Part shown: positions 34,204 to 37,643 of the stretch, in pieces
How the letters are laid out: the number at the start of each line of letters is the position of its first letter
How positions within the stretch are numbered: the first letter of the stretch is position 1
Source: an uncultured candidatus Porisulfidus sp.
Lineage (GTDB): Bacteria > Pseudomonadota > Gammaproteobacteria > Poriferisulfidales > Poriferisulfidaceae
DNA: 64,000 nt
Assembly: GCA_965116025.1 (NCBI GenBank)
Contig: OZ220480.1
Location: forward strand, 768,001-832,000
Reading direction: 5' to 3'
Notes under the pieces: model-generated
Told to the model about the DNA's origin: nothing
Databases searched by the model: none
The model's input: only the letters and a program-made list of their open reading frames with translations
Position numbers and translations under genes: made by a program

Positions 34204-36100
34204 GTGCGCAACGAATTGGATCACGCGGAAGCCCTTCCTTCATATGTCATGCGCTCGCGTTCACGGCGGGCGTGGTCACGATTCGAGCGGCGGGTCGGGT
34301 GTGCCGCCCTAGAATTGGTGAATCCCACAGGGCGAAGGCGGGGCGTGAGGCGAACCCGCCGCCTGGACGACGAGCGCCGGCGGCTCGCCGCCGCCGGAAC
34401 GCTGGCCGAGGCCGCGCCCCGCTTCGACCGCCCGGCCCGCTCGGTCGCCGGCGGCGGCGTCCTCGCCGCCCTTCCCGCCCTGCTCCGGGAAGGACTGCTG
34501 GAGCCCGCCCGCCGCATGCTCCGCCTGCCCGACGGCTACTACGGACTGTCCGCCGTCCTGCTCACCTGCGCTTTCCTGACCCTCTCCCGCGCCCGCGCCC
34601 CCGAGGCCCTGCGCCACCAGGCGCCCGGAGAGTGGGGCCTCCCGCTCGGGCTCGACCGCTGCCCCGAGGTCAAGACCCTGCGCCAGAAGACGGCCCTGAT
34701 CGCCGATGCCGAGGAGACCGTCCACGCTTGGCAGAGCGCCTTGGCGCGCGCCTGGATGGAGGACGAGCGCGACGACTGGATGACCTTGGCCGTGGACGGC
34801 CACGTCAAGGTCTACCACGGACGAAAGGGGCGCTTGCCCAAGGGCTTCGTCTCGCGCCAGAAGCTGTGTCTGCCGGCGTCCGCCAGCTACTGGGTCAACG
34901 TCCTTGGCGGCAAGCCCCTGCTGTGCCTGCATAAGAAGCTGGACCCGAAGCTGACGCGCGCCCTGGAGGAGGACGTCCTGCCCGAGCTGGAGCGGATGGG
35001 GCGGGTGCCGGCGGACGCGCCGGACCTGCGCCAGGGCGGGCGCCCCGTGGCCACCCTGGTGTTCGACCGCGAGGGCTGGAGCCCGCAGCTGTTCGCGCGC
35101 CTGGCGCGCCGCGGCGTCGCCTGCGTGACGTGGCGCAAGGGCTCCCGGGAAGACGACTGGCCGCGCGCGGAGTTCCGCTCCCGCGCGGTTCCGGTTCACG
35201 GCCCGGTCGGGAGGGGCGGCTCGCTGACCGTCTCGCTGGCCGAACGCCGGGTCGAGCTGCGCGACGGCCTTCAGGTTCGGGAGATCCGCCGCCTGCTGGA
35301 GAGCGGGCGGCAGGCGGCGCTGATCACGACCCATCCGGACATGCCGACCGAGGAGGTCGCCGGCGCCATGTTCTCGCGCTGGTCGCAAGAGAACTTCTTC
35401 AAGTACATGCGCGAGGAGTTCCGGCTCGACGCCTTGCCGGAGCATGCCGTGGAGCCGCTCGACCCGGAGACCCGGGTGGTCAATCCCGAGCGGCGGGAGG
35501 CGCGGAAAGAAGTCGAGCGCATCAAGCGGAGGCTTCAGTCCGTCGAGACGCGGGTCCGCGGGAAGCGCGCGAAGGGAATGGACGCGACCGGGCTTGAGGC
35601 CGAGGCGCGCGCGCTTCGGAAGCGTCTTGAGGAAGAGACGCTCCGCCGCGACCGGCTACCCGCCCACGTGCGCGCCGGGGAGCTCCGTGAACTCTCCCTG
35701 TAGGCGTTTCCTCATTTCGCCCGCCCACGTGCGCGCCGGGGAGCTCCCGAAGGAGCGGCGGCTCGACGCCTTGCCGGTCGCCCGGCGCCTGTTCGCCGAT
35801 CTCATCCGCATGATCTGCTACCGCGCCGAGACCCGCATGATGGCGGCCTCGGTCGCGGCGCCGGGGCGGAAGCCCCTGACGCGCAAAGCGCTCGCCGCCC
35901 TGATGCGGGCCGACGCCCATCTCCGGCCCGACCCGGAGCGCGGCGTCCTTGAGGTCGAGTTGCTCGGCTTCGCCAACGCCGCCGCCGAGCGAGCCCTCCG
36001 CCCGCTGCTCGACGAGCTCAATCGAACCGAAACCCGCTACCCCGGAACCGACCTCCGGCTCGTCTATCGCGTCGCCGACGAACCGTCCGAAGAGCGATAA
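34204..36100 (+). pseudogene. DDE transposase interrupted by a 61-bp insertion
   Basis: GLDRCPEVKTLR, AVDGHVKVYHG, VFDREGWSP, MFSRWSQENFFKYM; two frames (34204-35703 and end of 35444-36100) rejoin exactly if 61 bp are removed. Confidence 0.85.
35659..35747 (+). CRISPR. Orphan repeat-spacer-repeat unit (28+33+28 bp), candidate off-target type I-E spacer integration
   Basis: Identical CCCGCCCACGTGCGCGCCGGGGAGCTCC at 35659-35686 and 35720-35747 around GTGAACTCTCCCTGTAGGCGTTTCCTCATTTCG; the duplication is directly visible, the CRISPR origin is inferred. Confidence 0.55.
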
Positions 36101-36206
36101 CGCGTCATCCTATAATGCACTAGGTCAGGATGTCTGAAATGAGGGCGTGTAAGATAAATTACACGGGCGCGGCTCGCGCAACGAAATTGTCAAGGAGGAT
36201 GACGGC

Positions 36207-37643
36207 ATGGCTAGAACGATATGGATAAAAGGCGTGAAGTACACGGTCGGATATTCAACTAAGGGAACAGAAGGGGATGACGAGTTCGATGCGGGAGCAG
36301 CGTACTTCGTTTTTGGCTACGGCGGCGATGACATTATCTATGGTAGGTACAACGATTATATATGGGGGGGCGAAGGCAACGATACGATTTACGCGGCGGG
36401 CAAGTCTCAAAAGCCTTTAGGGACGAGTACTTACGATGCTGGAGGCGTGATATCTGGCGGTAATGGCAATGACAAACTTTACGGGGGGAGTTCCATAACT
36501 GGCGGGCCGGGGAACGACCTGATGCGGAGTTACGATTCATCTGCCAAGATGAGCGGCGGTGAAGGTGATGACACGATGCATGGCGGTAAAGGCGATGACA
36601 CGATGCATGGCGGTGAAGGTAAAGACACGATGAAGGGTGGCCTAGGCGATGACACGATGAATGGCGGCAAGGGCAAAGACTGGATGAAGGGCGGTGAAGG
36701 CAACGACCAGATGCAGGGCGGTGAAGGTAAAGACATAATCTTCGGCGGTGCGGGCGATGACCTGATCTTCGGAGATCGTATGCTAATCAAGACCATGTCG
36801 GTAGGCAGACCGAGCGAGTGGCAACATAGAGATGTCATATATAGAAACTTCAGCGAAAAAATCGGGGAGTGGATATACGAAGACGAGAAGTGGATATACG
36901 AAGAAGGGGAGTTTAGACACCAAGACGGATCAACACCGCTCCCTGAAGGGATGCATCGAATCTACGAAGGGGGAAATTACCCATACCCGAAACAGCCCGA
37001 TGGTGCGGCTGATATCCTGCATGGCGGTAAAGGCAATGACACGATGATTGGCGGCCCAGGCGCCGACACGATGAATGGCGGTAAAGGCGAGGACACGATG
37101 AATGGCGGCCCAGGTGCCGACACGATGAATGGCGGCAAGGGCAATGACCGGATGGAAGGCGGCCTAGGCGATGACACGATGGATGGCGGCGCGGGCAAAG
37201 ACCGGATGGATGGCGGCCTAGGCGATGACACGATGGATGGCGGCGCGGGCAATGACCGGATGGAAGGCGGCCTAGGCGATGACACGATGGATGGCGGCGC
37301 GGGCAATGACCGGATGGAAGGCGGCCTAGGCGATGACACGATGGATGGCGGCGCGGGCAATGACACGCTATTTGGCGGCAAGGGCGATGATCGCTTTGTC
37401 TTCGGCCCGAATAGTGGACACGATACGATTTATGATTATGAAGACAAGGAAATGATCGTGTTCGCGTCCGAGTTGGGCTTGAGTTTTGAGGACTTGATAA
37501 TCAAGGATGAAACAGACCCTATCTACCAGGGAGCGGCAGAGCCTTTTGTAAGAATAACCGGCTCGCATGCAAATGACTGGAGCGTGACGCTGGTCGGCGT
37601 AGCTTCGGACTTGACCGAATCGGACTTTGATTTTCTAGGATGA
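36207..37643 (+). CDS. RTX-repeat calcium-binding protein
   Basis: Two blocks of GGxGxDxMx nonamers; AAGGAGG SD; C-terminus DLTESDFDFLG. Confidence 0.88.
   Translation: MARTIWIKGVKYTVGYSTKGTEGDDEFDAGAAYFVFGYGGDDIIYGRYNDYIWGGEGNDTIYAAGKSQKPLGTSTYDAGGVISGGNGNDKLYGGSSITGGPGNDLMRSYDSSAKMSGGEGDDTMHGGKGDDTMHGGEGKDTMKGGLGDDTMNGGKGKDWMKGGEGNDQMQGGEGKDIIFGGAGDDLIFGDRMLIKTMSVGRPSEWQHRDVIYRNFSEKIGEWIYEDEKWIYEEGEFRHQDGSTPLPEGMHRIYEGGNYPYPKQPDGAADILHGGKGNDTMIGGPGADTMNGGKGEDTMNGGPGADTMNGGKGNDRMEGGLGDDTMDGGAGKDRMDGGLGDDTMDGGAGNDRMEGGLGDDTMDGGAGNDRMEGGLGDDTMDGGAGNDTLFGGKGDDRFVFGPNSGHDTIYDYEDKEMIVFASELGLSFEDLIIKDETDPIYQGAAEPFVRITGSHANDWSVTLVGVASDLTESDFDFLG
37018..37395 (+). repeat. 27/54-bp tandem RTX repeat block
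   Basis: Near-identical ggcggcctaggcgatgacacgatggatggcggcgcgggcaatgaccggatgga units. Confidence 0.85.

What the first reader, a model, noticed from the sequence alone, without database searches (positions are those of the whole stretch)
35659..35747. Candidate natural 'neo-CRISPR': a 33-bp insert with a 28-bp duplication disrupts a transposase
Seen: a perfect 28-bp direct repeat (CCCGCCCACGTGCGCGCCGGGGAGCTCC, 35659-35686 and 35720-35747; the flanking bases differ, so it is exactly 28 bp) brackets a 33-bp, more AT-rich insert starting with G. Deleting 61 bp restores one continuous transposase frame (DRLPAHVRAGELPKERRLDALP); the insert adds a TAG and a frameshift. Established: E. coli type I-E Cas1-Cas2 inserts 33-bp spacers whose first base is the PAM-derived G, duplicates a 28-bp repeat (61-bp unit), and can integrate off-target at repeat-like sites. 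By eye the 28-mer matches GTGTTCCCCGCGCCAGCGGGGATAAACC at 13/28 positions, including the CC.CG.GC..GC.GGG core and the terminal CC. Inference: a fixed off-target adaptation event in a wild genome that inactivated a mobile element and could seed a new array. No cas genes lie in this window.
Basis: partly seen in the sequence, partly recalled or inferred. Interest (0 to 1): 0.85.

Follow-up and report, generated by a model that had tools for sequence, protein, structure and literature searches.

The report
Stray CRISPR-style spacer insertion scars
A 33-base foreign insert flanked by a duplicated 28-base target, seen twice in this bacterial genome, has the geometry of a type I-E CRISPR spacer integration made outside any array, although the genome carries no type I-E system.

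Summary
A perfect 28-bp direct repeat (35659-35686, 35720-35747) brackets a unique 33-bp insert that starts with G.

- **Empty site.** A 97%-identical paralog of the transposase, and an insert-less copy-A-like contig in public run X8, both carry the site without the 61 bp. The 61 bp is therefore a derived insertion and is polymorphic.
- **Second unit.** A whole-genome scan found a second, unrelated 28+33+28 unit 177 kb away, between fur- and folP-like genes. These two are the only solitary perfect repeats of 24 bp or more in the 2.02-Mb genome.
- **Resident system excluded.** The only Cas1 belongs to a type I-G system with 37-bp repeats and mostly 34-38-nt spacers, which cannot give 28/33.
- **Match to type I-E.** A congener (G010) has a full type I-E operon. 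All 58 of its spacers are 33 nt and start with G, behind 28-bp repeats. Both duplicated targets match I-E repeats at 13-15 of 28 positions (top 0.4-2% of genome 28-mers). They carry GCGGG or GCCGG at positions 16-20, where the published I-E ruler anchor lies.
- **Gaps.** No protospacer and no I-E remnant were found.

Best reading (about 0.8): off-target integrations by an I-E-type Cas1-Cas2 now lost or off-chromosome. They are scars, not working arrays.

The parts
35659..35686 (+). First copy of the duplicated 28-bp target (the 'neo-repeat'). It is part of the transposase coding sequence.
   Evidence: perfect repeat; copy B has a single copy; the empty allele in run X8 joins 35658 to 35720 with 28 ambiguous bases.
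35687..35719 (+). 33-bp spacer-like insert. Its first base is G, its GC content is 51.5%, and it is unique in the genome.
   Evidence: It is absent from copy B and from the X8 and X10 contigs. No source was found.
35720..35747 (+). Second copy of the duplicated 28-bp target.
34357..35658 (+). Upstream part of a 5'-truncated Transposase_29 (PF21804) remnant, copy A. It corresponds roughly to residues 183-615 of the intact 742-aa copy B.
35748..36100 (+). Downstream part of the same transposase remnant, shifted out of frame by the 61-bp insertion.

Best explanation
The 61 bp is the product of one full-site spacer integration by a type I-E-like Cas1-Cas2 integrase at a non-CRISPR, repeat-like site. 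The proposed steps are as follows. The integrase carried a 33-nt prespacer with a PAM-derived G at one end. It attacked the two strands 28 bp apart. Gap repair then duplicated the 28-bp target on both sides of the insert. The same thing happened a second time in this lineage, at G000:C1:980866-980954. The integrase is not encoded in the present chromosome. It was either lost or supplied from an extrachromosomal or unassembled element. The resident type I-G system did not make these units. They are inert scars (single-spacer 'neo-CRISPR' units), not working arrays.

Shown: the structure, the empty site, the second unit, the geometry match, the resemblance to I-E repeats, and the absence of I-E genes.
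Inferred: the enzyme, and where and when it acted.
For: 1. Exact 28-bp duplication plus 33-bp insert.
2. Empty sites.
   - Paralog copy B (97% identical) has one 28-mer and no insert.
   - 79 of 80 distant homolog loci are open through the site; the 80th was not evaluated.
   - An insert-less contig in run X8 is copy-A-like. It has 8 differences in 34800-35658 and 0 in 35720-36056, against 31 and 6 for copy B. It has A before the 28-mer, so the duplication is exactly 28 bp.
3. A second solitary unit with identical 28/33 geometry and an unrelated sequence lies in a core intergenic region. These are the only solitary perfect repeats of >=24 bp in the genome.
4. Congener G010 has a complete I-E operon. 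Its array has 58 of 58 periods of 61, 58 of 58 spacers of 33 nt, and 58 of 58 spacers starting with G.
5. Resemblance to I-E repeats, in the orientation that puts G first.
   - Unit 1 matches the E. coli, G010 and G020 repeats at 13, 15 and 15 of 28 positions. The fractions of genome 28-mers doing as well are 0.022, 0.0037 and 0.0038.
   - Unit 2 matches at 13, 14 and 15 of 28 (fractions 0.022, 0.011, 0.0038).
6. Goren et al. 2016 (PMC5039180, passages read) report that a GCGGG motif in IR2 anchors a ruler placing the spacer 8 nt downstream of the motif's end.
   - Unit 2 has GCGGG at positions 16-20 of 28 (0.29% of genome 28-mers).
   - Unit 1 has GCCGG there (>=4 of 5 matches in 3.9% of 28-mers).
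7. The resident system is type I-G with 37-bp repeats. 32 of its 37 spacers are 34-38 nt and none is 33. Off-target pairs are spaced by the system's own repeat length in P. furiosus (PMC6698737, passages read).
8. No I-F Cas1 in 41 related genomes.
Against: - G000 has a single Cas1 (Cas4g/Cas1g).
- It has no I-E Cas1, no tblastn trace of the >=100-aa ORFs of L024, which cover G010's cas operon, and no I-E-like orphan repeat (best 21/28).
- Only 1 of 15 congeners and 2 of 41 relatives (counting G000) carry I-E. G010 is distant: 50-70% amino-acid identity in syntenic genes.
- G010, which has an active-looking I-E array, has no solitary 28/33 unit.
- No protospacer was found for either insert, so the PAM is untested. 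Searched:
  - phages and plasmids;
  - Viral contigs, both inserts;
  - Genome contigs and metagenome contigs, unit 1's insert only;
  - the own genome;
  - 52 other genomes of the order at <=3 mismatches.
- Identity to I-E repeats is only 13-15 of 28. By eye, from the sequences, IR1 is poorly kept. The 28-mers do not fold into the I-E hairpin.
- Unit 2 has no empty-site comparator.
- The X8 contig lies wholly inside the IS, so its locus is inferred, not shown.
- The primary neo-CRISPR paper could not be read.
Confidence: 0.8

Rival explanations
1. The resident type I-G adaptation module (Cas4g/Cas1g plus Cas2) made both units by off-target integration.
For: It is the only Cas1-Cas2 encoded in the genome. 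It has a 38-repeat array, so it has been active.
Against: Its repeats are 37 bp. 32 of its 37 spacers are 34-38 nt, the other five are 43-71 nt, and none is 33. Where studied, off-target pairs are spaced by the system's own repeat length (PMC6698737). No solitary 37+~36 unit was found in the scan. Both units are exactly 28+33.
Confidence: 0.04
2. The origin is not CRISPR-related. Candidates are filler DNA captured during repair of staggered breaks, a footprint of an excised element with a long target duplication, or an unknown integrase.
For: No cognate integrase gene is in the genome. No protospacer was found. The I-E-bearing congener lacks such units.
Against: Two independent events share the exact 28/33 geometry but have unrelated inserts. 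The inserts are unique, and by eye they show no terminal inverted repeats. Both inserts start with G. Both targets sit in the top 0.4-2% of resemblance to I-E repeats and carry the ruler anchor at positions 16-20. No other solitary perfect repeats of comparable size exist in the genome.
Confidence: 0.1
3. Unit 1 was made in another host that had type I-E and arrived here by horizontal transfer of the IS copy. On this view G000's lineage never saw an I-E integrase.
For: Unit 1 sits in a mobile element. The two IS copies differ by about 3%. The IS was not found at the DNA level in 40 relatives.
Against: Unit 2 lies between fur- and folP-like housekeeping genes, not in a mobile element. Run X8 holds copy A's unique right flank with 0 differences at a depth (143.5) similar to the insert-less copy-A-like contig (170.2), and no piece there covers the insert. 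That suggests the same locus exists empty in the population. The nearest transposase relatives elsewhere are <=61% identical.
Confidence: 0.05
4. It is an assembly or sequencing artefact.
For: The genome is a single-contig assembly of unknown method. Run X9 may be its own source, so X9 is not independent support.
Against: There are two perfect units with a biologically specific geometry. Run X9's independent k-mer contigs give depth 92.7 over the insert bin. The listed pieces, which stop at 35652 or skip the insert, cannot explain that depth. A 28-bp repeat is shorter than the word length of the contig builder as I recall it (31, not from a call), so collapse or expansion is not expected.
Confidence: 0.01

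Closest known systems
Off-target ('non-canonical') spacer integration giving neo-CRISPR loci (Nivala, Shipman & Church 2018, Nat Microbiol 3:310). The paper was not held. It is known here only from citing papers and recall.
   Same: A repeat-length target duplication brackets a spacer-length insert outside any array, at a site that resembles a repeat. The geometry is type I-E (28+33).
   Different: No cognate cas1-cas2 is in the genome. There are two single-spacer units and no growing array. One unit is polymorphic in natural samples. By recall, the natural candidates reported before (Yersinia pestis, Sulfolobus islandicus) were in genomes that carry the cognate system. bioRxiv 148544 says only 'circumstantial evidence in two other species'.
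Canonical type I-E CRISPR array (E. coli K-12 locus L109; congener G010 locus L025)
   Same: The unit is 61 bp: a 28-bp repeat, then a 33-nt spacer beginning with G. A GCGGG-type motif ends 8 nt before the spacer-side junction.
   Different: The repeated sequence is host DNA that matches I-E repeats at only 13-15 of 28 positions. It has no 7-bp stem hairpin, no AT-rich leader and no cas genes. Each unit has only two repeats.
Target-site duplications of IS elements and casposons
   Same: A direct duplication of the target flanks inserted DNA.
   Different: The insert is 33 bp, non-coding, without terminal inverted repeats by eye, unique, and different at the two sites. By recall, a 28-bp duplication is far longer than the usual 2-15 bp of IS elements and casposons.
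Resident type I-G CRISPR-Cas of the same genome (G000:C1:~339954-351900)
   Same: It encodes the only Cas1-Cas2 integrase present.
   Different: Its repeats are 37 bp, most of its spacers are 34-38 nt, and its period is 71-75. The geometry does not fit.

Membership tests
Off-target type I-E Cas1-Cas2 integration product (neo-CRISPR unit) | Direct duplication of the target of exactly the I-E repeat length (28 bp) | tested here: met
   The empty allele with A before the 28-mer fixes the length at 28. Unit 2 is also 28 bp.
Off-target type I-E Cas1-Cas2 integration product (neo-CRISPR unit) | Insert of I-E spacer length (33 nt counting the PAM-derived first G) | tested here: met
   Both inserts are 33 nt and start with G. 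In G010's array 58 of 58 spacers are 33 nt and start with G. In the E. coli K-12 array 12 of 12 repeats are followed by G.
Off-target type I-E Cas1-Cas2 integration product (neo-CRISPR unit) | An unmodified (empty) copy of the site exists | tested here: met
   Unit 1: copy B, the X8 and X10 contigs, and 79 of 80 homolog loci open through the site. Unit 2: not testable, because the intergenic region has no orthologue in relatives and the 28-mer has 0 metagenome hits.
Off-target type I-E Cas1-Cas2 integration product (neo-CRISPR unit) | The target resembles the repeat, with the IR2 anchor (GCGGG) ending 8 nt from the spacer-side junction | tested here: inconclusive
   Unit 2 is exact (positions 16-20). 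Unit 1 has GCCGG, 4 of 5. Overall identity is 13-15 of 28, with genome fractions of 0.0037-0.022. IR1 is poorly kept.
Off-target type I-E Cas1-Cas2 integration product (neo-CRISPR unit) | Cognate I-E cas1-cas2 in the same genome | tested here: not met
   One Cas1 only, of type I-G. No TIGR03638 match in G000. No tblastn trace of G010's I-E genes. I-E is present in congener G010.
Off-target type I-E Cas1-Cas2 integration product (neo-CRISPR unit) | Insert derived from a protospacer next to an AAG-type PAM | tested here: inconclusive
   No source sequence was found for either insert.
Functional type I-E CRISPR array | Repeats forming the Cas6e hairpin, a leader, and adjacent or genomic I-E cas genes | tested here: not met
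   The MFE is -5.5 and -5.9 kcal/mol, weaker than shuffles, against -13.9 (z -3.5) for the G010 repeat. There are no I-E genes.
Off-target product of the resident type I-G system | Duplication of about 37 bp with an insert of about 34-38 nt | tested here: not met
   Observed 28 and 33. For the native array.
IS or MITE insertion with target-site duplication | Insert with terminal inverted repeats, present in several copies | tested here: not met
   Each 33-mer occurs once in the genome. The two inserts are unrelated. By eye there are no inverted termini.

The most novel reading that the evidence does not exclude
A natural bacterial population is caught with polymorphic, recent off-target integrations made by a type I-E adaptation module that its chromosome does not encode. 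The module would be plasmid- or phage-borne, or recently lost. If so, solitary repeat-length/spacer-length units are 'fossil footprints' that record past or transient CRISPR systems. They would also be the raw material from which new arrays arise in the wild.
Probability: 0.35. Interest if true: 0.8.

Novelty: new member of a known kind. Interest (0 to 1): 0.68.

Why it matters
By citing papers and recall, off-target spacer integration has been shown in engineered E. coli, with only circumstantial natural examples. This case offers two clean natural examples:
- an empty-site control for one of them;
- apparent polymorphism in environmental samples;
- agreement with the published I-E molecular-ruler anchor.

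They lie in a genome that lacks the cognate integrase. That makes two questions testable. How often does Cas1-Cas2 damage host genomes in nature? Can integration scars reveal CRISPR systems that a lineage has lost or only met in trans? It also suggests a simple genome-wide screen: solitary repeat-length plus spacer-length units.

Tried and rejected
**Protospacer searches, all negative or at chance level**
- blastn of both 33-mers against phages and plasmids gave best E-values of 3-4 for unit 1 and 0.07-0.3 for unit 2.
- Exact scans of viral contigs for both inserts found nothing.
- Exact scans of genome contigs and metagenome contigs, for unit 1's insert only, found nothing.
- The own genome gave matches of at most 15 nt.
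- The 52 other genomes of the order gave nothing at <=3 mismatches.
- The native I-G array and the I-E arrays of G010 and G020 gave matches of at most 11 nt.

**Other negative or uninformative steps**
- Unit 2's 28-mer had 0 hits in metagenome contigs.
- An empty site for unit 2 in relatives could not be tested. fur and folP are not adjacent in them, and the intergenic region does not align.
- Rfam (permissive E-value threshold, up to 10) found nothing relevant at either unit. It barely recognised the true G010 array, so it is uninformative here.
- The IS was sought as DNA in 40 relatives. Only short chance hits came back.
- Five other period-61 clusters in G000 are copies of a multi-copy element whose whole 61-bp unit is tandemly repeated. 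They are not CRISPR-like.
- A 23-bp solitary repeat at G000:C1:743094 is an internal coding repeat.
- G010 was scanned whole for solitary 28/33 units and has none.
- Runs X1-X7 held only small shares. X7 was laid and showed only distant IS relatives, so I draw no conclusion about habitat or strain from them.
- In runs X8 and X10, no listed piece covers the insert.

**Unavailable sources**
- The Nivala et al. 2018 paper was not held under its DOI or PMC id. What I say of it comes from passages in citing papers and from recall. Its off-target site motif and its supplements could bear on the site comparison and were not seen.
Full report
**The observation.** The window holds CCCGCCCACGTGCGCGCCGGGGAGCTCC twice, at 35659-35686 and 35720-35747. 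The copies are perfectly identical, and the bases just outside them differ. Between them lie 33 bp, GTGAACTCTCCCTGTAGGCGTTTCCTCATTTCG, which occur nowhere else in the genome. The insert is 51.5% GC. The transposase copy around it is 72% GC and the genome is 62.7%. The upstream reading frame ends at the TAG inside the insert.

**The 61 bp is an insertion.** The window is G000:C1:768001-832000 of a 2.02-Mb single-contig genome.
- A second copy of the element lies at C1:420155-421875. It is about 97% identical and has one copy of the 28-mer (one mismatch) and no 33-mer.
- That copy encodes an intact 742-aa protein of Pfam family Transposase_29, which reads ...DGLPAHVRAGELPKERRLDALP... through the site.
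- 80 homologous loci from other genomes (<=61% identity) were examined. 79 have an open frame through the site. One had its best match on the other strand and was not evaluated.
- The window's copy (copy A) also lacks the first ~182 codons. It is a remnant for two reasons, and the order of the two lesions is unknown.

**Read-level evidence** (Logan contigs, not raw reads).
- Three runs of one study (X8, X9, X10) hold the stretch.
- In X8, a 1269-nt contig (depth 170) joins 35658 directly to 35720. The join is ambiguous over 28 bases.
- That contig differs from copy A at only 8 places in 34800-35658 and at none in 35720-36056. Copy B differs at 31 and 6 places over the same spans. It is therefore a copy-A-like allele without the 61 bp.
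- It has A before the 28-mer. The duplication is therefore exactly 28 bp, and the terminal G belongs to the 33-nt insert.
- The depth of X8 and X10 in the insert bin (14 and 46.1) equals the 5-base overlap of the insert-less contigs (170.2 x 5/61 and 561.9 x 5/61). No listed piece covers the insert there.
- X9 has depth 92.7 in that bin. The listed pieces cannot explain this, so I infer a contig with the insert. The piece itself is among the 93 rows not shown, and X9 may be the assembly's own source.
- In X8, copy A's unique right flank (36027-36593) is present with 0 differences at depth 143.5. The simplest reading is that the same locus exists without the insert.
- This is inferred, because the empty contig lies wholly inside the element. 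A precise deletion between the two 28-mers could also produce it.

**A second unit.**
- I scanned the whole genome for perfect direct repeats. Outside the native CRISPR array there are 38 pairs with length >=20, gap >=15 and period <=150.
- 35 of them are parts of tandem or coding repeats (periods 54, 108, 90 and so on).
- Three are solitary: the unit in the window, a 23-bp coding repeat, and a second 28+33+28 unit at C1:980866-980954.
- The second unit has repeat CCGCTCTCCCCGCGCGCCCAGTCCAGAG and insert GACGCGGCCCGAACGGCGCTCTTCTTGTTCGAC. Both are unrelated to unit 1.
- It lies 79-167 bp upstream of a fur-like gene, in the intergenic region shared with a divergent folP-like gene. That is core chromosome, not a mobile element.
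- A relaxed scan at periods 60-62 found no further units. It found only five copies of an unrelated element with a whole-unit 61-bp tandem repeat.

**Which enzyme.**
- The genome has one Cas1. It is a Cas4g/Cas1g fusion next to Cas2, Csb1, Csb2 and Cas3g, which makes it type I-G.
- Its array has 38 repeats of 37 bp. 32 of its 37 spacers are 34-38 nt and none is 33.
- In P. furiosus, off-target integration pairs are spaced by the system's own repeat length (PMC6698737, passages read). A 28-bp duplication therefore does not fit the resident system.
- Among 41 related genomes (counting G000), type I-E Cas1 (TIGR03638 above cut-off) occurs in two: congener G010 and same-order G020. Within the family it occurs in 1 of 16.
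- Type I-F Cas1 occurs in 0 of 41.
- G010 has the full operon cas3-cse1-cse2-cas7e-cas5e-cas6e-cas1e-cas2e. Its array of 59 repeats has a period of 61 every time. With the 28-bp repeat convention, 58 of 58 spacers are 33 nt and 58 of 58 begin with G. That is exactly the geometry of both solitary units.

**Resemblance of the targets to I-E repeats.** I compared each 28-mer, without gaps, with three repeats: G010, G020 and E. coli K-12 (fetched). The background was all 4.04 million 28-mers of G000, with mean 7.6-7.9 matches and sd 2.3-2.4.

| Target and orientation | vs E. coli | vs G010 | vs G020 |
|---|---|---|---|
| Unit 1, G-first | 13 (0.022) | 15 (0.0037) | 15 (0.0038) |
| Unit 1, opposite | 9 | 9 | 12 |
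| Unit 2, minus strand | 13 (0.022) | 14 (0.011) | 15 (0.0038) |
| Unit 2, plus strand | 12 | 13 | 10 |

Entries are matches out of 28. Brackets give the fraction of genome 28-mers doing at least as well. Unit 2's insert starts with G on either strand.
- The reference repeats were chosen after seeing the data, and three were tried. These fractions are therefore indicative, not formal P-values.
- Goren et al. 2016 (PMC5039180, passages read) report that GCGGG in the second inverted repeat anchors a ruler that places the spacer 8 nt downstream of the motif's end, that is at positions 16-20 of 28.
- Unit 2 (minus strand) has GCGGG at exactly 16-20, as do 0.29% of genome 28-mers. Unit 1 has GCCGG there; 3.9% of 28-mers match at >=4 of 5.
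- The first inverted repeat is poorly kept in both. Neither 28-mer folds into the I-E hairpin, whereas the G010 repeat does.

**What speaks against the I-E reading.**
- G000 shows no I-E gene, no remnant and no orphan I-E repeat.
- G010 is a distant congener, with 50-70% amino-acid identity in syntenic genes.
- G010 itself, tiled and scanned whole, has no solitary 28/33 unit.
- No protospacer was found for either insert in any collection searched. The PAM cannot be checked.
- Unit 2 has no empty-site comparator.
- The primary paper on neo-CRISPR loci was not available. I know it through citing papers, which say that off-target integrations were detected in E. coli overproducing Cas1-Cas2 and that there was circumstantial evidence in two other species. 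The rest is recall.

**Reading.**
- Two independent insertions have unrelated sequences but identical 28/33 geometry. Both start with G. Both sit at sites that resemble I-E repeats where the ruler anchor lies.
- These features are hard to explain by repair filler, by an element footprint or by the resident I-G integrase.
- I put about 0.8 on off-target integration by an I-E-type Cas1-Cas2.
- Where that enzyme came from is open: an I-E island since lost, or a module on a plasmid or other element not in this one-contig assembly.
- The perfect identity of both repeat pairs and the apparent polymorphism of unit 1 suggest the events are recent. That favours an extrachromosomal or very recently lost source, but this is inference.
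- The units are scars. Without Cas6e or Cascade, and without a hairpin, they are unlikely to yield working guide RNAs or to grow into arrays now.

**Novelty and score.** Off-target spacer integration is a known phenomenon, so this is a new member of a known kind. Unusual here are the absence of the cognate system, the second unit, the empty-site and population evidence, and the fit to the ruler anchor. Interest 0.68.

Noticed in passing
G000:C1:980866-980954 (L107 4867-4955), outside the window: A second perfect 28+33+28 unit with unrelated repeat and insert lies in the intergenic region 79-167 bp upstream of a fur-like gene and next to a folP-like gene. It may affect fur expression.
   Followed up: yes
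G000:C1:64501, 86665, 147960, 1322473, 1833121 (outside the window): Five copies of a dispersed element each contain a whole-unit tandem repeat of about 61 bp (for example CGGCAGGATGACGAAGAGGATCGGGGGA...). It is not CRISPR-like because the 'spacer' part is repeated too. Its nature is unknown.
   Followed up: partly
window 36207-37643: Directly downstream of the transposase remnant lies a 478-aa protein made of RTX-like GGxGxD nonapeptide repeats (27-bp period). A contig of run X9 carries one extra 27-bp repeat behind 36566, so the repeat number varies between samples.
   Followed up: no
G000:C1:850362-850642 (outside the window): A third, heavily deleted fragment of the same transposase element (79-91% identity in pieces). 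The integration site region is deleted there, so it is uninformative.
   Followed up: partly
window 35001-35015: Six clustered substitutions separate copy A from copy B. The otherwise copy-A-like contigs of runs X8 and X9 carry the copy-B letters there, which suggests gene conversion between the two copies or strain variation.
   Followed up: no
G000:C1:342277-342700 (L108), leader-proximal end of the native type I-G array: The first units have irregular periods (88, 108, 80, 80 instead of 71-75). Apparent partial repeat fragments sit inside the long 'spacers'.
   Followed up: no
L107 4303-6024 compared with relatives: The fur-like and folP-like genes are adjacent only in G000. In all 15 congeners they lie far apart or on different contigs, so the junction that holds unit 2 is a lineage-specific rearrangement.
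   Followed up: partly
L024 5190-9064 (G010): Synteny between G010 and G000 breaks just upstream of G010's type I-E locus. A 31-aa stretch there is 97% identical to G000:C1:580157-580249. This hints that the I-E locus sits at a mobile or recombination-prone junction.
   Followed up: no
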